The notes under the pieces were generated by a model that did not search any database, was not told where the DNA came from, and saw only the letters and a program-made list of their open reading frames with translations. From IMG/VR virus record IMGVR_UViG_3300011005_000151: a stretch of 64,000 nucleotides of DNA; one strand, written 5' to 3'. This document shows positions 9,682 to 59,630 of the stretch, piece after piece. Source of the stretch: a virus. A program made the position numbers and the translations under genes. Numbering within the stretch: position 1 is the first letter of the stretch; every line of letters begins with the position of its first letter.

Positions 9682-9817
9682 GTTATCACGCTCGCTGCTA
9701 TGCGAAAACCTCGAACCATATGCCTTCTACGTTTTTGACGTTTCGCAGATGTAAAACTTAATAAAAGCGTCGCAACAAATTGCTATTGGAATACAGCTAA
9801 TACTCTATAAAGCGATT

Positions 9818-9893
9818 TACAGATTAGTCAAATGGATATTGACGCTGGCTAGATAGAGCCGGAAGTCTGGGTTCGAATCCCAGATCTGCAAAT
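9818..9893 (+). tRNA. tRNA-like element or pseudo-tRNA with an 8-nt anticodon loop and no CCA
   Basis: Hand-folded. Acceptor has one mismatch. D-stem GTCA/TGAC. Anticodon stem CTGGC/GCCGG with loop TAGATAGA. T-arm CTGGGTTCGAATCCCAG. Confidence 0.3.
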
Positions 9894-11964: not shown

Positions 11965-12033
11965 TTCAGTCCAATATCGGTCAGCCATACCGATTGGAAA
12001 AATATTGATCCATACATAAAGGAGGGTTTGTTT

Positions 12034-12426
12034 ATGGCTAAGATCAAGATTTGCGGGGACGCGGTGGTTGTGACTTCCAGCCTCAAGCTGGAGGACATCA
12101 AGAAGGTCGAGAAGTATCGCCCCGAGGCGCTCTGCCTGAAGGGTGGCGAGGATAACAAGGATATCCTGTTCATCCTTGGCACTACCGCCGGCTTCGGTTC
12201 CATCAACACGATGGGCGCGGCTTTTGGCCGTGAGGCTCGCGACGGCTCCGGCTGTGCGCAGATCACCATGACCACCACGGCGGTCGAGGACGTGGCGGAG
12301 ACTGTCGCCGATGAGCTCGGCGCGGCTCTGGGTTACCTCGGCAAGATGGAGCAGGCTCTGCCCGCTGTGATCGCTGAGATCGACGCGGAGCGTGCCGCTA
12401 TCCTGGCCTCTATTACCGTCGAGTAA
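12034..12426 (+). CDS. hypothetical protein. Its N-terminus MAKIKICGDA recurs as decayed copies at about 1255 and about 6395
   Basis: AAAGGAGGG RBS. Followed by a hairpin. Confidence 0.6.
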   Translation: MAKIKICGDAVVVTSSLKLEDIKKVEKYRPEALCLKGGEDNKDILFILGTTAGFGSINTMGAAFGREARDGSGCAQITMTTTAVEDVAETVADELGAALGYLGKMEQALPAVIAEIDAERAAILASITVE

Positions 12427-12436
12427 TAGGGTAATC

Positions 12437-12456
12437 GGGGCGGGTTTTCCCGCCCC
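12437..12456 (+). terminator. GGGGCGGG-ttttc-CCGCCCC hairpin
   Basis: Same hairpin family. No strong T-run follows. Confidence 0.35.
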
Positions 12457-12525
12457 AAAGCACTCTTTTCCTTCACTTTTCCTTCAAAAAATCAAAAAAA
12501 ATACTACATAAAAGGAGAATTTGTT

Positions 12526-12807
12526 ATGACTAAGGTCGTTGTTGGAAAGAATCTGGATCGCCACACCTATATCGTTGCTGATTCCTACATCGTCGCCGAG
12601 GACGGCTCCCGCAAGAACTTCACCCACGAGCCCACTGTCCGCGACCTGCTGGAGATCGCCGATCCCGAGTACGCCCGCAGCTCCTACAACCTGGTCGGCA
12701 CCACCATCGATGCCGGCAACATCGACAAGACCTTCCCCCAGCTGGGTGTTGCCGATGGCGTCACGACCTATCTTCTGGCCGTGGCGAAGGCGGACAACGC
12801 GGTCTGA
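12526..12807 (+). CDS. hypothetical 93-aa protein
   Basis: TAAAAGGAGAA RBS. A terminator follows. Confidence 0.6.
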   Translation: MTKVVVGKNLDRHTYIVADSYIVAEDGSRKNFTHEPTVRDLLEIADPEYARSSYNLVGTTIDAGNIDKTFPQLGVADGVTTYLLAVAKADNAV

Positions 12808-12825
12808 CCTGAATAGCCAAGTCTT

Positions 12826-12854
12826 CCCGCCGGGTTTATCCCGGCGGGTTTTAT
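12826..12854 (+). terminator. CCCGCCGGG-tttat-CCCGGCGGG followed by TTTTAT
   Basis: TTTAT-loop family. Directly 5' of tRNA-Leu. Confidence 0.65.
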
Positions 12855-12856
12855 AT

Positions 12857-12942
12857 GCCGGTGTGACGGAATCGGAAGACGTACCAGACTTAAAATCTGC
12901 TGAGCTTTGCTCGTGAGGGTTCAAATCCCTTCGCCGGCACCA
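12857..12942 (+). tRNA. tRNA-Leu (anticodon TAA), type II with long variable arm
   Basis: Acceptor GCCGGTG/CGCCGGC, anticodon loop CTTAAAA, long variable arm, T-arm GGGTTCAAATCCC, CCA encoded. D and anticodon stems are imperfect. Confidence 0.7.
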
Positions 12943-12971
12943 TTAGAGATTACGAAAAGGAGGTTCGGGTT

Positions 12972-14462
12972 TTGTTCAACACAGTTATCAGACAGACGCC
13001 ATTCACCACCGAGGGTGCGGATGAGTTTTTCCCGAACATAACGGGAGGCGTAAGAAACGGCGACGTATCGTGGCTTGCAACGGTTCGCGCCGTCATCGGT
13101 CATCGGAAACCGGCGGATGAAAGCATCAATATCCGGTTCGGTGAATCGCGGTTCACAGCGGAAGATATCTCCGGGTTTTCTCCGGAGAGGGTCATGCAGT
13201 CCTGCCTCTGCAGTTACCAAATGGCGAGCGAGAACACGCTTTACATCCATGGTTTGGTATGCCTGAAGCGTGACGACAACAATGCGAATTTCGAGGTTTT
13301 CCAGAATCATTTCCTGTCTGCGTACCCCGGATGGTATCAGATGGAGCCGGTCACCGCGATGTTCCGCAGAACGTTCAACATCCTGTGCTTCGTCAACGCG
13401 GAGCTTCACAGCACGATCCTGATTATCGCCAGTCTGAATAATAAGTATCTGCACTATGCTCAGGCCGGTGTCACGGCGTATTTCCCCTGGTATTACAAGC
13501 GCGGCACGGATACTGTCTCGCAGGAGGAGCTTGACCTTCTTCAGTCTTTCAGCAAAAGGGAACCGGATGATTTTTACGCGGCTATCCGCAAGCTGGCGGA
13601 GGGGCACGATTTCGAGTCGGCGAGGATCCGAAGGCTTCTCAGCGGGTTTGAGAGCCAGTATGAGAAGGAGCAACTCTCCAGCTTGCAACTGGAAATCGAG
13701 AGATACCATAACGAGATCCGGGAATTGAATGACAGGATCGCGGCGTATTACCAGACCATCAATGAGAGAAGTATCACAGCTCTTGGTCTGGAAGCGAAGA
13801 TCGCCCAGGGAGGCGAGGACTCCGAGATCATGAACTACGTTCTTCAGAACAAGGAAATCGATCTTGTCAGTGTCGATGAAGACCGCATGAAGTTTATCGT
13901 TCGTACTCATCTGGCGTGGTGGGACGAGGATATGGCGCGGCGGTATATCGAAAATCACGATGGTTTCGTGTATTCGTTCCTGACAGAGCTGTCTGCGGAG
14001 CAGATGGAGAAGTTGATGAAGGCAGTTTTCCTGGATCAGAAGATCAAGGTTCGGTTCTGCGCGGCTTACGAGTTCCGCATCAGCGGGAATGTCCGCGCAA
14101 CAGGCGGGTATGACTTTGGCGGAGAGTATAACACCTACATGCCAAATCCCCATATCGACCAGTACAGCTGCATGGGCGGTTATGAGCGGAAAATCAACCG
14201 TTTCCTGGAGTCTCGTGATTATATCGGGGCTTTGGAACAGACCTGTGCGTCTGCCAGAAGCCTGAACTGGGGCGACAGCACGGTTATGCGCCAGTTCTTC
14301 CGGACGGTGTGTCACTACGGTGATAATCGCGTGAATAACAAGGCGTTTGAGCTTCCCGACGGCACCGTCGTTGACCCGAAGGGTGCGGTCGAGTGGCTGG
14401 AAAAGGAGGAAGCCGCAGGTGAGTCATCGGAAACGCAGGAAGGAGCGACGGAAAATGTCTAA
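12972..14462 (+). CDS. 496-aa protein of unknown function, first gene of the JAB/E1 operon. The C-terminal region has a YMPNPHIDQYSC motif reminiscent of the E2 HPN-Cys signature
   Basis: AAAGGAGG RBS with TTG start. Its stop overlaps the JAB start (ATGTCTAA). The antisense ORF 12921..14315 is judged spurious. Confidence 0.6.
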   Translation: MFNTVIRQTPFTTEGADEFFPNITGGVRNGDVSWLATVRAVIGHRKPADESINIRFGESRFTAEDISGFSPERVMQSCLCSYQMASENTLYIHGLVCLKRDDNNANFEVFQNHFLSAYPGWYQMEPVTAMFRRTFNILCFVNAELHSTILIIASLNNKYLHYAQAGVTAYFPWYYKRGTDTVSQEELDLLQSFSKREPDDFYAAIRKLAEGHDFESARIRRLLSGFESQYEKEQLSSLQLEIERYHNEIRELNDRIAAYYQTINERSITALGLEAKIAQGGEDSEIMNYVLQNKEIDLVSVDEDRMKFIVRTHLAWWDEDMARRYIENHDGFVYSFLTELSAEQMEKLMKAVFLDQKIKVRFCAAYEFRISGNVRATGGYDFGGEYNTYMPNPHIDQYSCMGGYERKINRFLESRDYIGALEQTCASARSLNWGDSTVMRQFFRTVCHYGDNRVNNKAFELPDGTVVDPKGAVEWLEKEEAAGESSETQEGATENV

Positions 14463-15399
14463 GATCATTCGTTTGACGCCAGATCTGATTAATCAGGCAA
14501 GGCAGGAATTCGAGGAAGCCTTGACGAACGGCAAGTTCGCCGACGGGAAAATCGAGTTTAAGAAAACCTTCAGCCACGTCGACCGCAAGGCCACAGTGGT
14601 TTTCTCGGAAAAGGCGTGGATCAAGCAGGATATGCTGGTATCCAAGTTCCCGAAGGAGATCGCCTGGCATGGTCTTGCGTATCGCGGCGAGGACGATACA
14701 TATATCATCGAGGATATCATGGTTTATCCGCAGGTCGTCACCGGCGGCGATGTGGAAACCGACCAGGTCGAGTACCAGACCTGGCTTTACGCCCACGATG
14801 ACAAGACGTTTGCCAGCATCCGGTATCAGGGGCACAGCCATGTGACCATGGGTGTTACGCCGTCCGCCGTGGACCGAAGATGGTATCAGGAGATCATCGA
14901 CCAGCTCGGTGAGGATATGTTTTATATCTTCATGATTTGGAACAAGCGCGGGGAAAAGACCATCATGATTTACGACATGCTGAAGAACTGCCTGTTCGAG
15001 ACGGCGGATGTGGATGTGAAGGTCGCGCCCGGCGAGCTTGGGCTTTTGGAATTCCTGTCCGATGCCAAGGACAAAGTAAAGGAAAAGGCTCCGGCATACA
15101 ACTACGGCAACTACGGCGGTTACGGCACTGGGTATAAACCGCAGACACAAACCACGCCGGCACAGCCGCAGGCCAATAAAACAGCTCCTGCTACGACCAC
15201 GGGGGCGACGCCTACTACCAAGGAGACGAAGCCGGAATCCGAGACAAAGGCGACGAGCCCAGCCCCGGCGCTTCCGTCCGGAACAAAGCCGAGAATCGGT
15301 GCAGGATGGTGCGGTCGCCGGTATCTCGACGACTACGGTTACGAGGACGAGGACGAGGACGATCCTTACGACTACTACTATCACAGGGGAGGTAAATGA
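14455..15399 (+). CDS. JAB/MPN (JAMM) metalloprotease-domain protein with a Tyr/Gly-rich low-complexity C-terminal tail
   Basis: HSHVTMGVTPSAVD matches HxHx7Sx2D exactly, with an upstream Glu. GGAAGGAG RBS. Translationally coupled to both neighbours. Confidence 0.75.
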   Translation: MSKIIRLTPDLINQARQEFEEALTNGKFADGKIEFKKTFSHVDRKATVVFSEKAWIKQDMLVSKFPKEIAWHGLAYRGEDDTYIIEDIMVYPQVVTGGDVETDQVEYQTWLYAHDDKTFASIRYQGHSHVTMGVTPSAVDRRWYQEIIDQLGEDMFYIFMIWNKRGEKTIMIYDMLKNCLFETADVDVKVAPGELGLLEFLSDAKDKVKEKAPAYNYGNYGGYGTGYKPQTQTTPAQPQANKTAPATTTGATPTTKETKPESETKATSPAPALPSGTKPRIGAGWCGRRYLDDYGYEDEDEDDPYDYYYHRGGK

Positions 15400-16070
15400 T
15401 GGATCTTTCCAAGAGTCTTGAGTATTTCAACCCCGATGAGGTCCGCGACCGTGTCCATATCATTGGATGCGGTTCGGTCGGGTCTACCGTGGCGGAAAAT
15501 CTTGTCCGCTGCGGTGTGACGAAGATCACGCTTTGGGATTTCGATTATGTCGAGCCCCATAATATCGCCAACCAGATGTTCCGCCGTCAGGATATCGGGA
15601 AACTCAAGGTTGAGGCTTTGGCTGATATCCTCCGGGAAATCAACGACGAGGTTGACGAGGATCTCATCCTTGAGCCGAAGGGGTGGCATGGCAAACTGCT
15701 CTCCGGGCACATCTTCCTGTGTGTGGACAGCATCGAGCTTCGGCGGGAAATCGTGGAAAAGCACTACGATTCCATGTTCGTAAAAGCGATGTTTGATTTC
15801 CGCACCCGGCTGGAGGATGCACAGCATTACGCCTGTGACTGGTCGGATGAGTCGGCCAAGGAAAATTTCCTCAAGACCATGCAGTTCAGTCATGAGGAAG
15901 CCAAAGAGGAAACTCCGGTTTCTGCCTGCAATGTAACGCTGGGTGTCTGCCAGACTGTGCGGATCATCTGCGGGTATGGCACGGCGAACTTCATGAACTT
16001 CATCAACGGTCGCGGTCTGAAAAAGATCGTGCTCGCCGATGCGTTCCATATGGTTTTGGACGCATTCTGA
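15396..16070 (+). CDS. minimal E1-like (ThiF/MoeB family) adenylyltransferase-domain protein
   Basis: IIGCGSVGS Rossmann loop, DFDYVEPHNIANQ, and a CNVTLGV ThiF-like motif. ATGA overlap with the JAB gene. Confidence 0.75.
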   Translation: MMDLSKSLEYFNPDEVRDRVHIIGCGSVGSTVAENLVRCGVTKITLWDFDYVEPHNIANQMFRRQDIGKLKVEALADILREINDEVDEDLILEPKGWHGKLLSGHIFLCVDSIELRREIVEKHYDSMFVKAMFDFRTRLEDAQHYACDWSDESAKENFLKTMQFSHEEAKEETPVSACNVTLGVCQTVRIICGYGTANFMNFINGRGLKKIVLADAFHMVLDAF

Positions 16071-16151
16071 TATCAACAGCGGTTTTCGGGGCCCGCGTAA
16101 AACCCCGAGCATGACTGTAAAGAATAATCGTTTGTTTTTCACAAACGGCCT

Positions 16152-16169
16152 CCTGCTGTCAGCGAGAGG
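16152..16169. repeat. CCTGCTGTCAGCGAGAGG element, copy A, upstream of the reverse transcriptase
   Basis: Identical core at four loci. Contains the GCTG-T-CAGC palindrome. Confidence 0.6.
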
Positions 16170-16522
16170 ATCGAAAAGGTAGGATGAAGATTCTGGGTAA
16201 CGGCCGCCTACAGAGCCGGCACGCGTCGTCATCGCGGCAGCCGTCGGTTCGGGTGCGCCGGAACCCAGGAGTTAAGCCCCGTGCTATATCACAAAACCCT
16301 CTCTTCGTCAAGAGGAATTCACACTTTTTCTGTCGAAATTGTTATCACATCACACACTTTTGCGCAGCTTCATCTACCGTAAATAACATTTGGTCGCATC
16401 TACAAAGATCGCCACAGGCATCGTTCACCTCGAACTCGGGATCAAAACCCAGTTCCGGAGGAGGTCCTGAAGACCGAAGTACCATGAGTTTACAGTCATT
16501 ACCTTATTGGAAAGGAGGATTT

Positions 16523-17665
16523 ATGGTTTACATAACAGTACGTCAGCCTCCGCAGTATCACCAGATCACGCTGGAAGAGCTTTTGTTTTCAGCAGACAAA
16601 TTCTCTGGAGGACTGATAAGCAATAACGAAACGAACACACGTACTTATACGGTATTCAGACCGAGCCCGCAGCTTCTGATGCATTTGGGTGTCGGGAAAA
16701 TGATACGGCGTCTTCATCAGTTCAACGAGAGCACCAAGGAGCTTCGGGGGCAGCCGCGCCAGTCGTTGTATCACACATTTTACATTCCGAAAAAGACAAG
16801 GGGTTTGCGCCGGATCGACGCGCCATGTGATGAACTTATGGATTCTCTCCGGTCTTTGAAGCGGATGTTTGAAAATGAGTTTGGCGCTCTGTATCATACG
16901 TCGGCTTTTGCCTATGTCAAAAAGCGTTCGACAAAAGACGCGGTCATTCGGCACCAGCAGAACGAATCCAAATGGTTTGCCAAGCTTGACCTGTCGAACT
17001 TCTTCGGAAGTACAACACTGGATTTCACGATGCGGATGCTAGGCATGATTTATCCCTTTTCTGAGATCTGCCGGAATCCATACGGGTATAAAGAACTGGA
17101 AAAGGCTGTCGAACTTGGGTTTCTGAACGGCGGTCTGCCGCAGGGAACACCGCTGTCCCCGACGCTTACCAATATCATTATGATCCCGTTCGATTACACG
17201 CTCAACAAGCGGCTTCGCAGTATGGATCAGCGGTATATCGAGACACGATATGCGGATGACTTCGCGTTTTCCTGCCGGTACGCATTCAATGTAAAGGATA
17301 TTGAGAACGTTGTGCAGGGGGTTATTCGAGAGTTCGACGCCCCGTATGTTCTGAATACAGAGAAGACAAAGTACGGTTCCAGTGCCGGGTCGAATTGGCT
17401 GTTCGGCATGATCCTCAACGCGGATAATCAGATCACCGTCGGAGCGAAGAACAAGCGGCAGTTTAAGGCCATGCTCACATCCTACGCCCTCGACAGAAAG
17501 GGTGGCGTCGAGTGGGACAAGCACGATATCCAGGTTTTGGCCGGACTTCGGAACTACTATCGCATGGTCGAGGAAAAGGAAATCGACGATATCGTTACAA
17601 AGATCGGCGGGAAATTCGGGGTCAATATCCCGAGACTTATCCATGACGATCTGAAAGCAGCATAA
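16523..17665 (+). CDS. stand-alone reverse transcriptase (retron or group-II-like; QGxxxSP and YADD motifs)
   Basis: RT motifs IPKKTRGLRRI, LDLSNFF, LPQGTPLSP and RYADDFAF. GGAAAGGAGGA RBS. About 440 nt of structured non-coding leader lies upstream. Confidence 0.85.
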   Translation: MVYITVRQPPQYHQITLEELLFSADKFSGGLISNNETNTRTYTVFRPSPQLLMHLGVGKMIRRLHQFNESTKELRGQPRQSLYHTFYIPKKTRGLRRIDAPCDELMDSLRSLKRMFENEFGALYHTSAFAYVKKRSTKDAVIRHQQNESKWFAKLDLSNFFGSTTLDFTMRMLGMIYPFSEICRNPYGYKELEKAVELGFLNGGLPQGTPLSPTLTNIIMIPFDYTLNKRLRSMDQRYIETRYADDFAFSCRYAFNVKDIENVVQGVIREFDAPYVLNTEKTKYGSSAGSNWLFGMILNADNQITVGAKNKRQFKAMLTSYALDRKGGVEWDKHDIQVLAGLRNYYRMVEEKEIDDIVTKIGGKFGVNIPRLIHDDLKAA

Positions 17666-17713
17666 GAAATCATTAAATCAATTCCCGTGATGCATAGCTA
17701 TTTACATAGCACC

Positions 17714-17729
17714 CCTGCTGTCAGCGAGG
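17714..17729. repeat. CCTGCTGTCAGCGAGG element, copy B, downstream of the reverse transcriptase
   Basis: Same core as copy A. Confidence 0.6.
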
Positions 17730-18172
17730 GTTACGAAAAGTCAGATCAACGAAGGCAGGCGGATACGAGTCGATCGCAGGTTATCCAGTTGAGCTGGGCT
17801 CGCAAGTTGACGACAAGAGACATCAACCAGTAAGAACCACTCGGATAAATATTGAAAAGTCCAGATGCATCAACATTTTATATGTCGAAAAGTTATGGGT
17901 TTTTTTTCGACACATCCGACCCTTGGCCGATGTCGTAATGAAACTAACTTTGCAAGCTTACAGCAGCCGGCGCCTTCAGTATCCAGGTAGACATTACCAT
18001 AGATCACGGGAATTTTATAGCGGCGTAGCACAAATGGTCAGTGTATTGGACTTTGACTCCAACGATGACGGTCCGAGTCCGTCCGCCGCCGCCAGCTCTC
18101 TTTGAGAGCGTGTTCTCCTTTCGTAAGGGGCGGCTTTCCCGCCGCCCCGTCTCTTAACATGGAGGTATAGAG

Positions 18173-18736
18173 ATGACAAGAACAGAATTTCGGGAAGAAA
18201 TAAACTCATGGGACGAGCTGATTACTTTCTGTAACGACGCAGGACTCAATGCCTGCGAGGATGTATACGACGATGGCGCGTATGACGATATGGTCGAGGA
18301 GGATATCAGCGAACGTGACTGGGGCTGGGAGCGTCTTCGAGATTGCCTGAGCGATCTGCCGGAAAGTCGGTGGAATGAATTCTATTACCGCGACGGATGG
18401 CTCGATTATCGTGTGCTCGATGAAGACGATTTTGATGCATGGAAATCCAGCGCCGAAGACGAGATGGATAACTGGGGTGGGTTCGACGAAGAGGATGAAG
18501 ACGAGGATGAAGAGGGAGAAGAAGTTGAGGAGGAAGAAGCGCCGGTCGAGGACGAAGACGAGATCGACGAGAACTTTGACCCTTCACAGATCTTCGATGG
18601 ATGCCAGTCGATCTTCCAGCGAATCGACCAGGACACGCAACACAAGCGTTTGGAAGAGCTTTCCGCACAGCAGAAAGAGGAACGTGCGGAAGTAGAGGCT
18701 TTTGAGGTAAGTCTTTCCGGCATCGTATTGGTATAA
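18173..18736 (+). CDS. highly acidic 187-aa protein, candidate DNA mimic or anti-restriction protein
   Basis: Asp/Glu runs (EDEDEDEEGEEVEEEE). A hairpin precedes it. Flanked by repeat copies B and C. Confidence 0.5.
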   Translation: MTRTEFREEINSWDELITFCNDAGLNACEDVYDDGAYDDMVEEDISERDWGWERLRDCLSDLPESRWNEFYYRDGWLDYRVLDEDDFDAWKSSAEDEMDNWGGFDEEDEDEDEEGEEVEEEEAPVEDEDEIDENFDPSQIFDGCQSIFQRIDQDTQHKRLEELSAQQKEERAEVEAFEVSLSGIVLV

Positions 18737-18744
18737 GCCGGGTT

Positions 18745-18822
18745 TGACATAACTGTGTTATGCAGATGGGGATGTGTTCCAAGCATACATAATCCCGCCC
18801 CTGCTGTCAGCGAGGGTAACGT
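18745..18822. repeat. long form of the repeat element (about 80 nt), copy C
   Basis: AACTGTGTTATGcAGATGgGGAT...ATACATAATCCCGCCCCTGCTGTCAGCGAGGGTAA aligns with copy D over about 75 nt. Confidence 0.6.
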
Positions 18823-18973
18823 TTTGTCGGCTACGTCGTAAAGTTTTGTTTTCTCATATTTATTGAATTTAATTACATAGAAATTCAATAAATACTCGAA
18901 AGGCAAAACTTGTACGCCGACGCTCTTAGCATATCACCCCACTCAATTTGCCAGGTGATATAGATAACACAGC

Positions 18974-18992
18974 GGCGGGGTTTATCCCCGCC
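18974..18992 (+). other. GGCGGGG-tttat-CCCCGCC hairpin 5' of tRNA-Pro, with no T-run
   Basis: TTTAT-loop family. Possibly a processing signal. Confidence 0.4.
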
Positions 18993-18997
18993 AATAT

Positions 18998-19073
18998 CCG
19001 GGTGTAGCTCAGTCGGAAGAGCGCCTGATTTGGGATCAGGAGGCCGCTGGTTCAAGTCCAGTCACTCGGACCA
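18998..19073 (+). tRNA. tRNA-Pro (anticodon TGG)
   Basis: Acceptor CCGGGTG/CACTCGG, D-arm GCTCAGTCGGAAGAGC, anticodon loop TTTGGGA, T-arm GGTTCAAGTCC, CCA encoded. Confidence 0.85.
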
Positions 19074-19122
19074 CGCTCTTTAGGCATGTATATAAAACGA
19101 CAGTTTAGTGAGGAGGTGCGTT

Positions 19123-19920
19123 ATGGCAGAAATCATTGATATCAGTAAGTTCCAGACATATACTGCGGAAATCAATGTAAACAAGCTCAGGCCGGATCTT
19201 ATCAGCCCAGCCAAGGAGTTCGTTGAGTGCGATGTCGCGCCGAATCATACATCTGAACCCATCAAGAAGATGGAGGATATCGACCGGATCACCAATTATC
19301 TGATCGAGCACAATAGATGGCGTGACAATATGCTGTTTATCGTCGGTATTAATTTTGGTTTGCGAGTCGGGGATCTTCTGCAGCTCCGGTTTTGTAATCT
19401 GATAAACGACAACATGACTTTCAAGGATACGTTCCCTGTTTTTGAGCAAAAGACGCGGAACACGAGAAAGCGGAAAAAGAACCGATATATCACAGTCAAT
19501 TTCGCGGTCAAAGAAGCGGTCGTGTTATATCTGGAGCATGTAAAAAATGTATCTTTGAGCGACTATATGTTCCGAAGCGAGTCAAATAACGGGAAGTTCT
19601 ATAATGAACCGATGAGCAGAACAACGGTACACACAATGCTGAAGGGCATTGCAAAAGATCTTAATTTGAATATCCAGATATCGTCCCACACTCTGCGGAA
19701 AACATTTGCGTATCACCAGATGGTCATGTCTGACAACGATCCGCGCAAGCTCATGCTTCTGTCCAAGATGCTAAACCACAGTTCGGTGTATCAGACTTTG
19801 GATTATATCGGAATCACGGCAGAGGAAATTCACGATGCGTACCTTGCGCTTAATCTAGGCAGCTCCAGGAATTATCTTGCCGGCAGTCAGCTTGTTGAAA
19901 TGGAGGAGGAATCTGCATAA
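19123..19920 (+). CDS. small tyrosine recombinase (phage integrase/XerD-like)
   Basis: HTLRKTFAYH...LNHSSVYQTLDYIG catalytic-region motifs. AGGAGGTG RBS. Lies adjacent to tRNA-Pro. Confidence 0.7.
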   Translation: MAEIIDISKFQTYTAEINVNKLRPDLISPAKEFVECDVAPNHTSEPIKKMEDIDRITNYLIEHNRWRDNMLFIVGINFGLRVGDLLQLRFCNLINDNMTFKDTFPVFEQKTRNTRKRKKNRYITVNFAVKEAVVLYLEHVKNVSLSDYMFRSESNNGKFYNEPMSRTTVHTMLKGIAKDLNLNIQISSHTLRKTFAYHQMVMSDNDPRKLMLLSKMLNHSSVYQTLDYIGITAEEIHDAYLALNLGSSRNYLAGSQLVEMEEESA

Positions 19921-27571: not shown

Positions 27572-27739
27572 AATGCCGTTGAAGATTGAACGAGATCTTG
27601 AGTTCTTGGATTCTCTCATCCAGAAAGCTGTAGAGAAAAAGTGCGAGATCCATATCGAAATCACACCGGAAAACGAGACAATCACAATCAGTCCATGGGA
27701 GGCGTTCAGCTACATGTGCCCGTATAGGAGAGAGGCATG
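27572..27739 (+). CDS. small hypothetical protein (55 aa)
   Basis: AAGGAGCGG RBS. Overlaps the pnkp-like start by ATGA. Confidence 0.3.
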
Positions 27740-29974
27740 AGAGTCCTTCTTCTTCTGAGAGGCGCACCGGGCTGCGGTAAATCCACATGGATCGAACAAA
27801 ATGGGCTTTCCAAGTACACATTATCCTCAGATGATATCCGCATGATGTGTAATAGCCCTGTTCTGACAGTCAGCGGGAAGCCAGCGATCAACGTATCGAG
27901 CGACCAGGTTGTGTGGGATACGCTGTTCCGTCTTTTGGAAGTACGTATGAAGAACGGCGCTTTCACGGTAATCGACGCCACAAATTCCAAGACGATCGAA
28001 ATGAAGCGGTACAAGGATTTGTGCGACTCTTACAGGTACCGTATCTACTGCGTCGACTTCACCAACATCCCGATCGAACAGTGTAAACAGCAGAATCTGC
28101 AGCGTCCAGAGCTCAAGCAAGTACCGGAAGAATCAATCGACCGAATGTATGCGCGGTTCGCTACACAGAAAATCCCGTCTGGGATTACGGTCGTCAAGCC
28201 GGACGAACTCGACAAGATCTGGATGAAAAAGATCGACCTGTCTTCTTATAAAATGATCCATCATATTGGAGATATCCATGGGTGTTATACAGCTCTATCA
28301 GAGTATTTCGATAGAGAAGGCGGGCTGAAGGATGACGAGTTCTACATCTTCTGCGGCGATTATATCGACCGTGGGATTGAAAACGTGGAAGTTATTAACT
28401 TCCTACTTGGGATTTATGACCGTCCGAACGTCCTGCTTTTAGAGGGGAATCACGAACGATGGCTTTGGATTTATGGTAACGATGCTGTCGCGAAATCCAA
28501 GGAGTTTGAACTCATAACCAAAACGCAGTTTGAAAACGCCCGCGTCAGTAAGAAGGAAATGCGTAAGTTCTACCGGAGGCTATGTCAGTGTGCATATTAC
28601 ACCTACGGGGATAAGACAGTTCTGGTGACTCACGCCGGTTTGAGCACACTTCCTGAGAATTTGACGCTCGTTTCAACATACCAGATGATTCACGGAGTCG
28701 GGAACTACAACGATTTCGAGGCGGTCGCCAACAACTTCGCACTTAACACACCGGCGGATACATATCAGATCCACGGCCATAGAAATACAAAACGTCTGCC
28801 AACTCAGGTGAATGAACGGGTATTCAATCTTGAAGGCCGGGTCGAGTTCGGCGGTGAGCTTCGTGCAGTTCAGCTTTCTCCGGACGGATTCCGTACTGTG
28901 GAAATCCAGAATACGGTTTTTCAGATGCCGGAGGCTCAGGAGCCGGAGGAAAAGAAGGAAGAGAAGAAGACGGTTGCTGACATGATCCTTGAACTTCGTA
29001 ATAACAGATACGTCCAGGAGAAACGTTACGGCGATATTTCTTCATTTAACTTTACTAAGGGCGCGTTCTACGACAAGGTTTGGGATGCGCAGACGATGAA
29101 AGCTCGCGGGCTTTACATCGATATCCCAAAGGCGAAAATCGTAGCGCGGGCTTATAACAAATTTTTCAACATCAACGAGCGTCCTGAGACGAAGCTCGAT
29201 ATGTTGGAGTACAAACTGGCGTTCCCTGTCACAGCGTATGTGAAAGAGAACGGTTTTCTCGGTTTGGTCAGCTACGACGAAGCGAACGACGGGCTTTTCA
29301 TCACAACAAAGTCTTCTCCGGATGGAGATTACGCCGTCTGGCTGCGCGGGAATTTTGAGGTCTATCTCCCGAGTATCCGTGAGAAAATCAAGCAGTACCT
29401 AAAAGAGAACGACGTAACTATGGTTTTCGAGTGCGTGGATATGGTTCACGACCCGCACATTATTGAGTACCCGACGAACCGTCTCTACCTGCTTGACATT
29501 ATCAAGAACGACATGACCTGTACGAAGATGGAGTACAGCGAGCTCTGTGAAGTAGCCAAGTCTTTCGGACTCCGCTGCAAGGAACAGGCGTTTGTGTTGA
29601 GCGATTGGCAGGAGTTCTTCGATTGGTATTACGAAGTCACCGATGAAGATTATCTGTACAACGGCAGGTACATCGAAGGATTTGTGATCGAAGACATCGA
29701 AGGATATATGGTTAAGCTCAAACTAGCGTACTACAACTTCTGGAAATTCATGCGTGGAATCGCGCACGAGACACTCCGGAAAGGGCATATCGACGGGAAG
29801 AGAACATCTGCTCTGACGACAGCGCTCGCCAATAACTTCTATGGTTGGGTTCGCCAACTCTATGAACACACGGAAGACCCGGATACGCTACCGCGAGATA
29901 TTTGCACCCTGCGTAGGATGTTCTTCGAGGAGAATGATCGAGTACCGGATATTTGGAGTGCCCGAGCGTATTGA
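27737..29974 (+). CDS. pnkp: Pnkp-like trifunctional RNA end-healing and sealing enzyme (P-loop kinase, calcineurin-type phosphoesterase, ligase-like nucleotidyltransferase)
   Basis: Walker A GAPGCGKST. Metallophosphatase motifs GDIHGC, GDYIDRG and GNHE. C-terminal KENG (KxNG) nucleotidyltransferase motif. Confidence 0.75.
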   Translation: MRVLLLLRGAPGCGKSTWIEQNGLSKYTLSSDDIRMMCNSPVLTVSGKPAINVSSDQVVWDTLFRLLEVRMKNGAFTVIDATNSKTIEMKRYKDLCDSYRYRIYCVDFTNIPIEQCKQQNLQRPELKQVPEESIDRMYARFATQKIPSGITVVKPDELDKIWMKKIDLSSYKMIHHIGDIHGCYTALSEYFDREGGLKDDEFYIFCGDYIDRGIENVEVINFLLGIYDRPNVLLLEGNHERWLWIYGNDAVAKSKEFELITKTQFENARVSKKEMRKFYRRLCQCAYYTYGDKTVLVTHAGLSTLPENLTLVSTYQMIHGVGNYNDFEAVANNFALNTPADTYQIHGHRNTKRLPTQVNERVFNLEGRVEFGGELRAVQLSPDGFRTVEIQNTVFQMPEAQEPEEKKEEKKTVADMILELRNNRYVQEKRYGDISSFNFTKGAFYDKVWDAQTMKARGLYIDIPKAKIVARAYNKFFNINERPETKLDMLEYKLAFPVTAYVKENGFLGLVSYDEANDGLFITTKSSPDGDYAVWLRGNFEVYLPSIREKIKQYLKENDVTMVFECVDMVHDPHIIEYPTNRLYLLDIIKNDMTCTKMEYSELCEVAKSFGLRCKEQAFVLSDWQEFFDWYYEVTDEDYLYNGRYIEGFVIEDIEGYMVKLKLAYYNFWKFMRGIAHETLRKGHIDGKRTSALTTALANNFYGWVRQLYEHTEDPDTLPRDICTLRRMFFEENDRVPDIWSARAY

Positions 29975-30630: not shown

Positions 30631-30712
30631 TACATAACCAACTGTGTTATGAAGATGAGGATCAACAAGAATACATATTGGATCCCGCTCCTGCTGTCAG
30701 CGAGAGTAATGG
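30630..30712. repeat. long form of the repeat element, copy D
   Basis: Aligns with copy C over about 75 nt, including CCTGCTGTCAGCGAGAG. Confidence 0.6.
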
Positions 30713-30872
30713 AAAGGTAAGACCTGGAAGGAATTTTTTCGCTCGCTCTGCGAGCGAGCAAATACGAGGGCTCACGAGGGCTTTTCCGGCATATGCCTTG
30801 AAGAAAAGTCCAGTAAGTACTTTTCTACGGCATACGGATAACACAGTTTAATTTTAGAGCGGAGGTGTGCAT

Positions 30873-58294: not shown

Positions 58295-58373
58295 CTTGCA
58301 AAGGAAGTGAGATTATGGTACAATTTCCTGAATGTCAGGTCTCTTTTCGGTATCGAAGGGAGCCACTATCCAA

Positions 58374-59630
58374 ATGAAACGCAAAGACAAAAAAGGACGA
58401 TTACTTCGGGAGGGGGAATCTCAGCGGTCAGATGGCCAGTACATGTACAGATATGTAGACATGTATGGCGTGAGAAAAAGCGTGTATAGCTGGAGACTGG
58501 TAGAGACAGATGCATTACCGACAGGCAAGAGGCGCGGTCCAGCGCTCAGAACACTGGAACAGCAAATCGATCAGGACATCAATGATGCAATACGGACTTG
58601 TGACGCGGACACAACTACCGTAAATGATCTGTTCGATTCCTTCATGGCGATTCGGATTGACCTCAAACTAACGACCAGAAGCAATTACATGTGCCTCTAT
58701 AACAAGCACATACGTAATGGCATTGGTTGCGCACTCGCGAAGTCCATAAAGCATACGGATATACAGAGGCTATATTCGGCCCTTATCAAAAACGGGCTGA
58801 AAGCGAGCTCAGTGTATAGCGTTCACGCGATTCTGTATCAGTTGTTCGAGAATGCTGTTATGGATGGCATAATTCGTTCCAATCCGACGCGAAACGCGAT
58901 GAAGGTCGTTAAACGAACCAATAACGCGGACAGCGACAAGCGCCATGCGCTCACGGTTGAAGAACAGGAGCGCTTTGTGAACTATGTCTACTCAACGAAA
59001 CGGTATCGCAAACTCGCGCCATTGTTCACCGTGTTGCTCGGGACCGGGCTCAGAATCAGCGAAGCACTTGGCTTAACATGGAAAGATTGTGACTTTAACC
59101 AAAATCTTATTAGGATAGACCACTCGCTATTGTACAAACCAAACGAAGATGGTAAGTATGAATATCGAATATCTACGCCAAAGACGCTGGCCGGAGTCAG
59201 AACAGTGCCCATGTTACAAGAAGTCAAGGACGCGCTGGTGTCAATTCGAGACAGCCAAACTCCGCAGGCAAAGAAGTTCAAAGTCGATGGACATAGCGGT
59301 TTCATCTTTTTGAACTCGTGCAATAAGGTGTACACGCCGAGCTTCGTCTGCGACACGATTAATAGTGTGTCTACTAATTATAATAAGGAAGAGATTGAAC
59401 GAGCGAGGAAGGAAGACAGAGAGCCAGTTCTCTTGCCAAAATTCAGTCCGCACATCCTGAGACACACATTCTGTACACGCATGAGCGAAAATAAGTCTGA
59501 CATTAAGGTTCTCCAAGACGTAATGGGGCATAGGCACATCAAAACGACAATGGACGTGTATAACGAGGCCACTACCACGCAGAAGTACATCAACTTCAAG
59601 GACGTGGAAGGGAAGATGAAACTGGCCTAA
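58374..59630 (+). CDS. int: phage tyrosine integrase
   Basis: C-terminal HILRHTFCT...MGHRHIKTTMDVY catalytic motifs. Confidence 0.8.
   Translation: MKRKDKKGRLLREGESQRSDGQYMYRYVDMYGVRKSVYSWRLVETDALPTGKRRGPALRTLEQQIDQDINDAIRTCDADTTTVNDLFDSFMAIRIDLKLTTRSNYMCLYNKHIRNGIGCALAKSIKHTDIQRLYSALIKNGLKASSVYSVHAILYQLFENAVMDGIIRSNPTRNAMKVVKRTNNADSDKRHALTVEEQERFVNYVYSTKRYRKLAPLFTVLLGTGLRISEALGLTWKDCDFNQNLIRIDHSLLYKPNEDGKYEYRISTPKTLAGVRTVPMLQEVKDALVSIRDSQTPQAKKFKVDGHSGFIFLNSCNKVYTPSFVCDTINSVSTNYNKEEIERARKEDREPVLLPKFSPHILRHTFCTRMSENKSDIKVLQDVMGHRHIKTTMDVYNEATTTQKYINFKDVEGKMKLA

What the first reader, a model, noticed from the sequence alone, without database searches (positions are those of the whole stretch)
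16080..17730. Stand-alone retron or group-II-like reverse transcriptase with a 440-nt structured leader, bounded by conserved palindromic repeats
The protein has canonical RT motifs 1-7 with QGxxxSP and YADD. It has no maturase or endonuclease domain. No group II domain V (GTACGG) was found nearby. A GC-rich hairpin-laden leader (16100-16520) precedes it, and identical CCTGCTGTCAGCGAG elements lie at 16152 and 17714. This looks like an RT plus non-coding RNA cassette (retron or defence-associated RT type) carried by a phage. It directly follows the E1/JAB operon. Whether the two are functionally linked is unknown.
Basis: partly seen in the sequence, partly recalled or inferred. Interest (0 to 1): 0.75.

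Follow-up and report, generated by a model that had tools for sequence, protein, structure and literature searches.

The report
Phage retron with several template RNAs
A gut-bacterial phage carries a retron-type reverse transcriptase together with four copies of a retron-like structured RNA, not the usual one, which suggests a natural "retron array" whose role in a phage is unknown.

Summary
There is a 380-aa reverse transcriptase (16523-17665, +) behind a 452-nt non-coding leader, and the 15-mer CCTGCTGTCAGCGAG flanks it.

The 15-mer does not bound a cassette. It is the conserved stem-loop (SL2) of a repeated structured RNA unit. The window has four such units, all on the + strand:
- w1, 16111-16499
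- w2, 17680-18014
- w3, 18753-18972
- w4, 30640-30848

Each unit has the layout of a retron msr-msd RNA:
- a unit-specific 9-12-nt arm (a1)
- an invariant G
- a variable-sequence hairpin (SL1)
- the conserved SL2
- a 100-300-nt variable structured core
- "AG", then the complementary arm (a2)

The a2 of w1 ends 23 nt before the RT start codon. The a2 of w2 ends 4 nt before tRNA-Gln, and that of w3 ends 25 nt before tRNA-Pro.

The RT is closest to retron RTs by HMM, by sequence search of PDB chains and by predicted fold. It lacks the canonical NAxxH and VTG motifs. It belongs to a large, unnamed clade on viral contigs and gut, rumen and termite Clostridia MAG contigs.

Related genomes carry one unit upstream of the RT and one to four downstream, all on the RT strand, with covariation in the a1/a2 pairing and in SL2.

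No recognised effector is adjacent. Linkage to the E1/JAB cluster is frequent but not obligatory.

Verdict: a retron-type module with a natural array of template RNAs, a new variant of a known kind. msDNA production is inferred, not shown.

The parts
16111..16499 (+). Unit w1, the retron-like ncRNA directly upstream of the RT. Parts: a1 16111-16121 (ATGACTGTAAA); putative branching G 16122; SL1 16129-16147; SL2 16149-16169 (contains the 15-mer at 16152-16166); variable core; AG; a2 16489-16499 (TTTACAGTCAT).
   Evidence: An 11-nt perfect inverted repeat was found. The MFE fold recovers the a1/a2 pairing, SL1 and SL2, with z = -4.56. CM R1 hit at 48.7 bits, E 1e-10. The same layout occurs upstream of the RT in at least 46 of 67 related loci.
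16512..16518 (+). Shine-Dalgarno sequence AAGGAGG for the RT. It starts 13 nt after a2 and ends 4 nt before the ATG.
   Evidence: Read directly from the sequence. In relatives a2 ends 11-28 nt before the RT start codon.
16523..17665 (+). Retron-type reverse transcriptase, 380 aa. It has QGTPLSP and YADD. The NAxxH position reads DAVIRH and the VTG position reads LFG. It carries an N-terminal extension of about 70 aa compared with solved retron RTs.
   Evidence: Family and structure searches place it with retron RTs.
17680..18014 (+). Unit w2. Parts: a1 17680-17691 (AATTCCCGTGAT); G 17692; SL1 17697-17710; SL2 17712-17730; a2 18003-18014. It ends 4 nt before tRNA-Gln.
   Evidence: A 12-nt perfect inverted repeat was found. 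Fold z = -2.39. R1 hit at 47.1 bits.
18019..18094 (+). tRNA-Gln (UUG), abutting the 3' end of w2.
   Evidence: Detected by ARAGORN and by Rfam tRNA at 59 bits.
18753..18972 (+). Unit w3. Parts: a1 18753-18761 (CTGTGTTAT); G 18762; SL2 18798-18816; a long near-perfect central hairpin; a2 18964-18972. tRNA-Pro follows 25 nt later.
   Evidence: Arms and fold come, with fold z = -6.11. R1 hit at 40.9 bits.
18998..19073 (+). tRNA-Pro (UGG), downstream of w3.
   Evidence: Detected.
30640..30848 (+). Unit w4, an orphan copy 13 kb downstream of the RT gene. Parts: a1 30640-30650 (AACTGTGTTAT); G 30651; SL2 30688-30706; a2 30838-30848. It shares a1 and the 5' domain with w3 but has a different core. 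An SD and a GTG ORF (30867) follow.
   Evidence: Sequence comparison and arm finding. Fold z = -4.62. R1 hit at 46.7 bits. No unit is found within 4 kb downstream of the RNA-ligase gene in the closest relative L094.
12028..16070 (+). Upstream conserved cluster: p132, p93, tRNA-Leu, p496, JAB-like 350 aa, ThiF/E1-like 224 aa. It usually, but not always, precedes the RT module. Whether it belongs to the same system is unresolved.
   Evidence: Exceptions are shown.

Best explanation
This is a retron-type module carried by a phage of gut Clostridia. It consists of one retron-clade reverse transcriptase and an array of four paralogous retron-like template RNAs.

**Anatomy (shown).** Each RNA is closed by its own a1/a2 duplex. 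That duplex places an invariant G (16122, 17692, 18762, 30651) next to the 3' end of a variable, structured core. A conserved stem-loop SL2 and its 3' flank GUAAC..purine tract are shared by all units of one phage.

**Mechanism (inferred).**
- The RT recognises SL2 and its flank.
- It primes from the 2'-OH of the G.
- It copies the variable core of each unit.
- The phage therefore makes several different msDNA-like RNA-DNA molecules from one enzyme.
- The units are probably co-transcribed with the RT and the neighbouring tRNAs. tRNA processing (RNase P) could then define some unit 3' ends.

**Role (inferred, weakest step).** The module has no recognised toxin or effector beside it. It lies among tRNA genes, a tRNA-repair enzyme and an acidic protein. 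I therefore favour a phage-side role, either counter-defence or exclusion of rival phages, over the classical host abortive-infection role.
For: **RT identity**
- PADLOC's best hits are retron RT_II-A (2e-44) and RT_I-A (2e-39), and all top 25 are retron RT models.
- NCBIfam gives retron_St85_RT 1.4e-49, group II RT 1e-21 and Drt2 1e-11.
- The best PDB sequence hits are retron RTs.
- Foldseek ranks 1-10 of the AF2 model (pLDDT 72.9) are all retron RTs.

**RNA anatomy**
- All four window units and 11 of 11 first-examined units have perfect 9-13-nt arms.
- MFE folds recover the a1/a2 pairing, SL1 and SL2.
- Fold z-scores are -4.6, -2.4, -6.1 and -4.6.
- Arms are unit-specific. The longest perfect complement averages 9.5 nt for a unit's own arms and 7.0 nt against other units. 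It reaches 9 nt or more in 45 of 69 own comparisons and in 8% of comparisons with other units.
- In 56 of 68 units the best arm is followed by G. G precedes a2 in 44 of 48 units.
- All 10 a1/a2 pairs show double changes: 144 cells, 0 of 500 shuffles as high, and slid controls pair at 30-42%.
- SL2 is 89% paired with 40 double-change cells, 0 of 500 shuffles as high.

**Link to the RT**
- All 114 R2 hits in 73 sources are on the RT strand. They cluster about 250-310 nt upstream of the RT start and about 50-100 nt after its stop.
- A test that does not use the covariance model finds the a1-G...a2 layout ending 11-28 nt before the RT start in 46 of 67 loci. These include RTs only 42-46% identical.
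- SL2 cores within one genome are 80% identical, against 61% between genomes, with 0 of 2000 permutations as high. This fits one shared partner.

**Context**
- tRNA arrays interleave with units.
- A PNK/RNA-ligase is encoded in the window.
Against: - No msDNA, branch point or RT activity has been observed. The branching-G assignment rests on position and invariance only.
- The RT misses both canonical retron signatures: NAxxH reads (D/S)AVxRH and VTG reads N(L/F)G. It also scores below NCBIfam's curated retron cut-off, 169 against 235 bits.
- No Rfam retron or RT-associated RNA family matches the units.
- Units have a median length of 302 nt, longer than I recall for classical retron ncRNAs (about 150-230 nt). 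The G is separated from SL2 by an extra hairpin.
- The msd-like enclosing helix (purine tract against pyrimidine tract) was not distinguishable from a composition effect: -15.3 against -13.8 kcal/mol.
- No effector is recognised, so the biological role is conjecture.
- The SL2-only models detect units in only 50 of 73 loci.
- The a1/a2 pair counts used units pre-selected for complementarity.
Confidence: 0.6

Rival explanations
1. This is a single-template retron with relics. Only the unit directly upstream of the RT (w1) is a template. The other copies (w2-w4) are duplicated 5' domains kept for another reason, such as RT titration, RNA stability or processing, or they are decaying.
For: - Classical retrons have one ncRNA upstream of the RT (established knowledge).
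- The upstream unit is the most constant feature.
- Numbers and positions of extra units vary between relatives.
- w4 has no counterpart within 4 kb downstream of the RNA-ligase gene in the closest relative.
Against: - Orphan units keep perfect unit-specific a1/a2 arms of 9-13 nt, the G, SL1 and SL2, just like upstream units.
- They fold well below shuffles.
- Their SL2 tracks that of the same genome.
- Decay would erode the arms first.
Confidence: 0.15
2. The units are RT-independent RNA punctuation of phage early transcripts. They would act as processing, stability or antitermination modules (nut/boxB-like hairpins, tRNA-cluster spacers) that merely share a neighbourhood with the RT.
For: - Units sit in intergenic gaps on the coding strand and are followed by an RBS with a start codon, a tRNA or another unit.
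- No sigma-70 promoter or intrinsic terminator lies on the + strand around them.
- They interleave with tRNA arrays.
Against: - In the loci fetched, units cluster tightly on both sides of the RT gene.
- Three of four RT loci that lack the E1/JAB cluster or sit elsewhere still have units: L037 and L050 by covariance model and L057 by arm search. No unit was detected in L049 or L051.
- No unit was found in regions fetched through the RNA-ligase gene, except one weak hit.
- The a1-G / AG-a2 geometry is specific to retron priming and is not needed for processing signals.
- This test is biased, because most loci were fetched via the RT.
Confidence: 0.1
3. The units are non-autonomous mobile or retro-mobile elements, SINE- or MITE-like. 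They would be spread within phage genomes by the RT or by recombination, and the RT with w1 would be the autonomous copy.
For: - Copy number and positions vary.
- w3 and w4 share a1, the 5' domain and a2 but lie 12 kb apart with different cores.
- "Unit plus ORF" arrangements occur, such as L008 with unit, small ORF, unit, RT.
- The RT module occupies different positions relative to ThiF in L057, L037 and L049-L051.
- A small tyrosine recombinase recurs nearby.
Against: - Terminal arms differ between copies and covary, whereas transposase-recognised TIRs are conserved in sequence.
- No target-site duplications or empty sites could be defined.
- Retron-clade RTs are not known to retrotranspose (established knowledge).
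Confidence: 0.1
4. The element is a group II intron, a diversity-generating retroelement or a DRT2-type system.
For: - The RT shares the QGxxxSP and YADD motifs with group II RTs.
- A repeat lies on both sides of the RT.
- DGRs are the best-known phage RT systems.
- DRT2 also has an upstream ncRNA.
Against: - No group II RNA domains are found, even at E <= 1.
- There is no maturase or endonuclease domain.
- The group II RT HMM gives 77 bits against a cut-off of 300, and Drt2 gives 45 bits against 390.
- The repeats are 20-50-nt hairpin-centred, non-coding and differ by compensatory changes, not A-specific ones.
- Motif 4 ends in SP, not the SQ that I recall as typical of DGR RTs.
Confidence: 0.02

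Closest known systems
Retrons (RT plus msr-msd ncRNA; nearest by score are the St85/Ec86 type II-A and Ec78/Ec83 type I-A RTs)
   Same: - The RT is closest to retron RTs by HMM, PDB sequence search and predicted fold.
- The ncRNA lies immediately upstream of the RT on the same strand and is closed by a1/a2 inverted repeats.
- A G follows a1 and a G precedes a2.
- The 5' (msr-like) part is conserved and the 3' (msd-like) part is variable and structured.
- a2 lies a few tens of nt before the RT start.
   Different: - There are several ncRNA genes per RT, both upstream and downstream, and one lies 13 kb away.
- The RNAs have a median length of 302 nt and carry an extra hairpin between the G and the conserved stem-loop.
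- The RT lacks canonical NAxxH and VTG, has an N-terminal extension of about 70 aa, and falls below the curated family cut-off.
- No recognised effector gene is present.
- The carrier is a phage of roughly 100 kb or more, with tRNA arrays, rather than a bacterial defence island or small prophage moron.
Engineered retron arrays, or "multitrons" (PMC10370050)
   Same: One RT serves tandem msr-msd units that each carry their own priming site and a different template.
   Different: Those are synthetic constructs built from Ec86-type parts. The present arrays are natural and have divergent a1/a2 arms per unit. I found no report of natural arrays.
Type VI retron hybrid RNA (hyRNA; bioRxiv 10.1101/2025.10.22.683967)
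   Same: In both, a structured retron template RNA is physically continuous with a downstream coding sequence. There, reverse transcription derepresses translation. Here a2 is followed within 10-30 nt by an RBS and a start codon for many units.
   Different: No small toxin or HTH partner is recognised here. The RT is not of that type by score. RBS occlusion was not tested. Some units are followed by tRNAs, not ORFs.
[quoted passage not shown]
   Same: Both are phage-encoded retron-like RTs with a long upstream non-coding region and no linked effector, and the function is unknown.
   Different: That RT is a 501-aa protein with an N-terminal domain of about 200 aa. No RNA structure or repeats were described for it. 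Homology to the present clade was not tested.
DRT2 (UG2) RT-ncRNA systems
   Same: A single RT gene has an upstream structured ncRNA whose stems delimit the template.
   Different: The Drt2 HMM gives only 45 bits against a cut-off of 390. DRT2 ranks 19th by fold. There is no evidence for a repeat-junction ORF, and the a1-G geometry is retron-like.

Membership tests
Retron | The RT belongs to the retron RT clade. | tested here: met
   - Retron models are the best hits in PADLOC (2e-44) and NCBIfam (retron_St85_RT 1.4e-49).
- Retron RTs are the best hits by PDB sequence search (3e-22) and by Foldseek (ranks 1-10).
- Caveats: the score of 169 bits is below NCBIfam's cut-off of 235, and no reference phylogeny was built.
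Retron | Retron RT signature motifs NAxxH (between motifs 2 and 3) and VTG (after motif 7). The motif definitions are recalled from the retron literature. | tested here: not met
   Across the family these positions read (D/S)AVxRHQxNES and NW(N/I/L)(L/F)G(V/M). Only the H and the G are kept.
Retron | An ncRNA lies adjacent to and upstream of the RT, flanked by inverted repeats a1/a2. | tested here: met
   - In w1 the arms are 16111-21 and 16489-99.
- In 46 of 67 loci the best arm pair has this layout and ends 11-28 nt before the RT start.
- Arms are unit-specific and covary.
Retron | A conserved branching G lies immediately 3' of a1. | tested here: met
   G follows the best arm in 56 of 68 units, including all four in the window. 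Only position and conservation were tested, not branching.
Retron | A stable msd hairpin (b1/b2) forms the template. | tested here: inconclusive
   Cores fold stably. The enclosing purine/pyrimidine helix is not better for a unit's own partner than for other units' partners.
Retron | The system produces 2'-5' branched msDNA. | not testable with these tools
   This needs expression followed by gel analysis or sequencing.
Retron | An associated effector gene completes a tripartite system. | tested here: inconclusive
   - No PADLOC retron effector lies next to the RT.
- The neighbours are a ThiF/E1-like and a JAB-like protein upstream, and RNA genes downstream.
- Linkage to the E1/JAB cluster is frequent but not universal.
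Group II intron | Intron RNA domains (D1-D6, especially DV) flank the RT ORF, and the RT carries a maturase (X) domain. | tested here: not met
   Rfam finds none at E <= 1. Pfam finds RVT_1 only. The group II RT/maturase HMM gives 77 bits against a cut-off of 300.
Diversity-generating retroelement | A TR/VR repeat pair has A-specific differences, with the VR at the 3' end of a target gene. | tested here: not met
   The repeats are short, non-coding and hairpin-centred, and they differ by compensatory changes. Avd was not searched for specifically.
DRT2 / other DRT (UG) systems | The RT is a member of the UG2 or another UG clade. | tested here: not met
   Drt2 gives 45 bits against 390 and Drt3a gives 25 against 200. 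All top-25 PADLOC hits are retron models.

The most novel reading that the evidence does not exclude
A large, undescribed clade of phage reverse transcriptases runs natural retron arrays. One enzyme would prime on several distinct template RNAs, which are processed out of a transcript shared with phage tRNAs, and so make a panel of different msDNAs. The phage would use these either as decoys or sensors against host defences, or as reverse-transcription-dependent switches for the genes and tRNAs that follow each unit. This would be a retron used by the virus rather than against it.
Probability: 0.3. Interest if true: 0.85.

Novelty: new variant of a known kind. Interest (0 to 1): 0.68.

Why it matters
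- **Biology.** Retrons are understood as bacterial abortive-infection systems with one RT, one template RNA and one toxin. Here the RT clade is abundant: 418 clusters at 50% identity score E <= 1e-30. It sits on large viral and MAG contigs assigned to gut, rumen and termite Clostridia, has no recognised toxin, and comes with several template-like RNAs per genome. If these RNAs are reverse-transcribed, this would be the first natural multi-template retron that my searches turned up. It would also be a case of a virus using retron chemistry for its own purposes.
- **Practical use.** One RT that accepts several natural templates with different a1/a2 arms and cores of 100-300 nt is what multiplexed RT-DNA editing tools were engineered to imitate.
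- **Annotation.** The RNA family is absent from Rfam 15, and its members currently look like empty intergenic space in phage annotations.

Tried and rejected
1. **Rfam.** An E <= 1 scan of 15000-19200 and a gathering-threshold scan of seven related loci found only tRNAs, a tmRNA, one DUF3800-XI hit and two sub-threshold chance-level matches. Nothing covers the units.
2. **GenBank phages.** blastn of 15000-19000 against INPHARED gave only short 60-80% matches and no annotated relative.
3. **RNAalifold on MAFFT alignments** recovered only the inner 4 bp of SL2, because SL1 and the arms vary in sequence and length. I therefore set the SL2 structure by hand and tested SL1 and the arms by per-sequence folding and by own-against-other comparisons.
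4. **Naive null for inverted repeats.** A best 9-mer occurring anywhere turns up about 17% of the time by chance. Arm length alone is therefore not evidence. I replaced this with own-against-other and position-fixed tests.
5. **msd-enclosing helix.** The purine tract against pyrimidine tract comparison was inconclusive.
6. **Core complementarity.** I searched the variable cores against the rest of the window for a target or donor logic. Nothing appeared beyond the shared SL2 and the w3/w4 5' domain.
7. **Empty-site comparison for w4.** I used the closest relative found via the RNA ligase (L094, 77% aa identity). The flanks are rearranged, so no junction could be defined.
8. **Promoter and terminator scan.** Nothing was found on the + strand around the units.
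9. **Literature.** Six searches for natural multi-ncRNA retrons or a retron-E1/JAB link found only engineered arrays and an uncharacterised jumbo-phage retron-like RT.
10. **In-frame ORF.** The long ORF 16184-16522 running in frame into the RT is not conserved in relatives. It is treated as a chance product of G+C-rich RNA.
Full report
**1. What is in the sequence**

The ORF list and the sequence show a 380-aa protein encoded at 16523-17665 on the + strand. AAGGAGG lies at 16512-16518, and the protein contains LPQGTPLSP and RYADD. A longer ORF starting at 16184 runs in frame into it, but it is not conserved. Homologues all start at the equivalent of 16523 with MxYITV.Q.P.Y.

Pfam sees only RVT_1. 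The gene upstream (15396-16070) is ThiF/E1-like, and the one before it is weakly JAB-like. The 452-nt gap between ThiF and the RT has no conserved ORF.

The 15-mer CCTGCTGTCAGCGAG is exact at 16152 and 17714, as reported. It is also exact at 18800 and 30690, always on the + strand. Five matches at up to 3 mismatches are found against 1.22 expected, and 0 of 100 shuffles reach five.

**2. The 15-mer is the core of a repeated structured RNA unit**

Aligning the four copies with copies from related contigs shows that the 15-mer is a hairpin, called SL2 here. It has an outer and an inner stem around a U-A-closed GUY triloop, and compensatory changes occur between copies: UGC/GCG, CAC/GUG and UUGC/GCAG.

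On 49 covariance-model matches, SL2 is 89% paired with 40 double-change cells. None of 500 shuffles reaches this, and slid controls pair at 46-60%.

Each copy sits in a larger unit with this order:

- a left arm of 8-13 nt
- a G
- 3-6 nt
- a hairpin of variable sequence (SL1)
- SL2
- GUAAC and a purine-rich tract
- a variable core of 100-300 nt
- AG
- a right arm perfectly complementary to the left arm

The window units are:

| Unit | Coordinates | Arm length | Fold z-score |
|---|---|---|---|
| w1 | 16111-16499 | 11 nt | -4.56 |
| w2 | 17680-18014 | 12 nt | -2.39 |
| w3 | 18753-18972 | 9 nt | -6.11 |
| w4 | 30640-30848 | 11 nt | -4.62 |

Unconstrained MFE folds recover the closing stem, SL1 and SL2 in all of them.

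**3. Is the closing stem more than chance?**

A best 9-mer complement occurring anywhere appears in about 17% of random pairings, so I used stricter tests.

- **Own against other.** Over all 69 covariance-model matches with enough flank, the longest perfect complement between a unit's left window and its own right window averages 9.5 nt. Against other units' right windows it averages 7.0 nt. It reaches 9 nt or more in 45 of 69 own comparisons and in 8% of the others.
- **Position.** The best arm is followed by G in 56 of 68 units and typically ends ..TGYAAT|G. The partner is preceded by G in 44 of 48 units.
- **Pair counts.** On a fixed-register alignment of 46 units, all 10 pairs show changes on both sides. 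There are 144 double-change cells, 0 of 500 shuffles reach this, and slid controls pair at 30-42%. The percentage paired is inflated here, because the units were chosen for complementarity.
- **Without any covariance model.** In 46 of 67 loci, the best complement between the 70 nt before the RT start and the region 150-520 nt upstream has a left arm followed by G, and its right arm ends 11-28 nt before the start codon. This includes loci whose RT is only 42-46% identical and whose SL2 has drifted, for example GCUUACG-UCACA-CGAAGC in L009-L011.

**4. The RT**

Retron models are the best matches everywhere.

- PADLOC: RT_II-A 2e-44 and RT_I-A 2e-39, and all top 25 are retron models.
- NCBIfam: retron_St85_RT 1.4e-49 (169 bits), group II RT/maturase 77 bits, Drt2 45 bits.
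- PDB sequence search: retron RTs at 3e-22 to 8e-17, against GsI-IIC at 6e-6.
- Foldseek with an AF2 model (pLDDT 72.9): ranks 1-10 are all retron RTs, followed by group II, DRT2 and DRT9.

Three points count against simple membership. The score is below NCBIfam's cut-off of 235. The two motifs usually quoted as retron signatures are altered family-wide, with NAxxH reading (D/S)AVxRH and VTG reading N(L/F)G. There is also an N-terminal extension of about 70 aa.

The clade is large. 5024 proteins score E <= 1e-5 in the 90%-clustered collection, and the nearest non-identical ones are 60-61% identical. In the 50%-clustered library, 418 clusters score E <= 1e-30, and the best 150 all score at least 227 bits. 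For comparison, the best solved retron RT scores 82 bits.

Members lie on IMG/VR contigs and on MAG contigs of Oscillospiraceae, Lachnospiraceae, Acutalibacteraceae, Christensenellaceae and others from gut, rumen and termite samples.

**5. Units and the RT travel together**

With two SL2-centred covariance models, every match in the loci fetched lies on the RT strand. Matches cluster about 250-310 nt upstream of the RT start and about 50-100 nt after its stop, with further copies downstream.

Of 73 loci, 50 have at least one detectable unit and 27 have units on both sides. Individual genomes carry 2-6 units.

SL2 cores within one genome are 80% identical, against 61% between genomes, and 0 of 2000 label permutations reach this. 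This is expected if all units of a phage serve the same partner. Recent duplication would give the same result. w3 and w4 are such a pair: they share a1, the 5' domain and a2 but have unrelated cores.

Rfam 15 has no family for these RNAs.

**6. Surroundings**

The window is phage-like. It encodes a DNA polymerase, a DnaB-like helicase, NrdD, a PNK-phosphatase-RNA-ligase fusion, an integrase and six tRNAs.

The a2 of w2 ends 4 nt before tRNA-Gln, and that of w3 ends 25 nt before tRNA-Pro. In relatives, tRNA arrays (and in L008 a tmRNA) are interleaved with units downstream of the RT. No sigma-70-like promoter or intrinsic terminator is seen on the + strand around the units. Co-transcription followed by tRNA-type processing is therefore plausible, but it is inferred.

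The cluster p132, p93, tRNA-Leu, p496, JAB, (acidic protein) and ThiF precedes the RT in 44 of the 46 genome-scan loci that include at least 5 kb of sequence upstream of the RT. Four loci have the RT without the cluster, two of them with detected units (L037, L050). In L057 the RT lies between JAB and ThiF. All of these loci may belong to one phage lineage, so synteny cannot be separated from functional coupling.

**7. How it most likely works**

Shown here:

- a retron-clade RT
- an upstream RNA with retron geometry (a1, G ... G, a2, then the RT)
- extra copies with the same geometry
- covariation
- SL2 similarity within a genome

Inferred:

- The RT binds SL2 and its flank.
- It primes from the 2'-OH of the G next to the a1/a2 duplex.
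- It copies the variable core of each unit into an msDNA-like product.

The biological role is the weakest link. No effector is recognised. The neighbourhood contains tRNAs, a tRNA-repair enzyme, an acidic protein and, in relatives, NAD-salvage genes. This suggests a phage-side conflict function.

A type VI-like logic is a further possibility. There, reverse transcription of a hybrid RNA derepresses the downstream gene. Here many units are followed within 10-30 nt by an RBS and a start codon. I did not test RBS occlusion.

**8. Rivals**

- **Only w1 is a template (0.15).** The intact arms, G, SL1 and SL2 of the orphan units argue against this.
- **RT-independent processing or antitermination modules (0.1).** The tight clustering around the RT and the priming-type geometry argue against this. 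My sampling was biased, though, because most loci were fetched via the RT.
- **Mobile SINE- or MITE-like elements (0.1).** Variable copy number and the w3/w4 pair fit this. The covarying, non-conserved termini do not, and no empty site could be defined.
- **Group II intron, DGR or DRT2 (0.02).** These are contradicted.

**9. Comparison with what is known, and novelty**

The module works like a retron and passes the RNA-layout and nearest-clade tests. It fails the signature-motif test and has no recognised effector. I therefore file it as a retron-type module of a distinct clade, not as a member of any named retron type.

I found no description of natural multi-template retrons. Tandem msr-msd arrays exist only as engineered "multitrons". 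The nearest natural precedent for a phage-borne, effector-less retron-like RT with a long upstream non-coding region is an uncharacterised gene in Staphylococcus jumbo phages.

Rating: new variant of a known kind. Interest is 0.68, and confidence in the retron-like mechanism is 0.6.

Noticed in passing
window 12028-16070 (and L001-L093 equivalents): A conserved six-gene cluster: p132, p93, tRNA-Leu(UAA), p496, a JAB-like protein, (an acidic protein) and a minimal 224-aa ThiF/E1. Only ThiF and a weak JAB signal are recognised by Pfam, PADLOC and NCBIfam, and p132, p93 and p496 have no family. It may be a phage ubiquitin-like conjugation or deconjugation system.
   Followed up: partly
window 18173-18736: A highly acidic 187-aa protein with long D/E runs, possibly a DNA mimic. 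In most relatives its homologue sits between JAB and ThiF. In the window, and in L041, L043, L055 and L057, it lies downstream of the RT, so the RT module and this gene have swapped relative order.
   Followed up: partly
window 19108-19920: A small (270-aa) XerC/D-like tyrosine recombinase lies directly after w3 and tRNA-Pro. Homologues at 59-64% identity recur downstream of the RT or units in L012, L031, L039, L051 and L072. A second, larger integrase lies at 58332-59630.
   Followed up: partly
window 27737-29974: A 745-aa polynucleotide kinase-phosphatase/RNA ligase fusion (phrog_8238, 2e-221). It is a tRNA-repair type enzyme, consistent with a counter-defence neighbourhood.
   Followed up: no
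window 9817-9892: ARAGORN calls a tRNA with a four-base anticodon (gata) and an undetermined amino acid. It could be a frameshift-suppressor-like tRNA or a degenerate one.
   Followed up: no
L008 275-4430: The arrangement is unit, small ORF, unit, RT, tRNA-Gln, phage tmRNA (Rfam 88.9 bits), eleven tRNAs, then another unit. By eye the small ORF resembles an Arr-type ADP-ribosyltransferase (YHGT...). It suggests "unit plus gene" modules.
   Followed up: partly
L085/L087 (after RT aa ~95), L090 (aa ~260), L086 (aa 307), L073: Some RT genes of the clade carry insertions of about 230-290 nt or 1.2 kb, or a partial duplication. The 50%-clustered library also shows a subset of 450-465-aa RTs that match in two stretches. 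These may be in-frame insertion domains or introns. Rfam found no intron at gathering threshold.
   Followed up: partly
L057 4702-8368; L037, L049, L050, L051: The RT module is not fixed relative to the E1/JAB cluster. In L057 it lies between JAB and ThiF. In four loci it sits in unrelated neighbourhoods, with BspA-like repeat proteins, an AAA ATPase or the small recombinase.
   Followed up: partly
L003 11112-13143: About 4 kb downstream of the RT in a relative lie genes for an isochorismatase-family protein, a ribose-phosphate pyrophosphokinase-like protein and a NAMPT/NAPRTase-like protein. These are NAD+ salvage genes of the kind phages use against NAD-depleting defences.
   Followed up: no
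window 16184-16522: A 113-codon stop-free stretch runs in frame with the RT across the core of w1, starting at an ATG just after the purine tract. It is not conserved in relatives and is probably a by-product of the G+C-rich RNA.
   Followed up: partly
window 18973-18993: A G+C-rich hairpin (GGCGGGG-TTTAT-CCCCGCC) lies between the a2 of w3 and tRNA-Pro, with no T-run on the + strand. The scan flags it only as a terminator-like site on the - strand.
   Followed up: no
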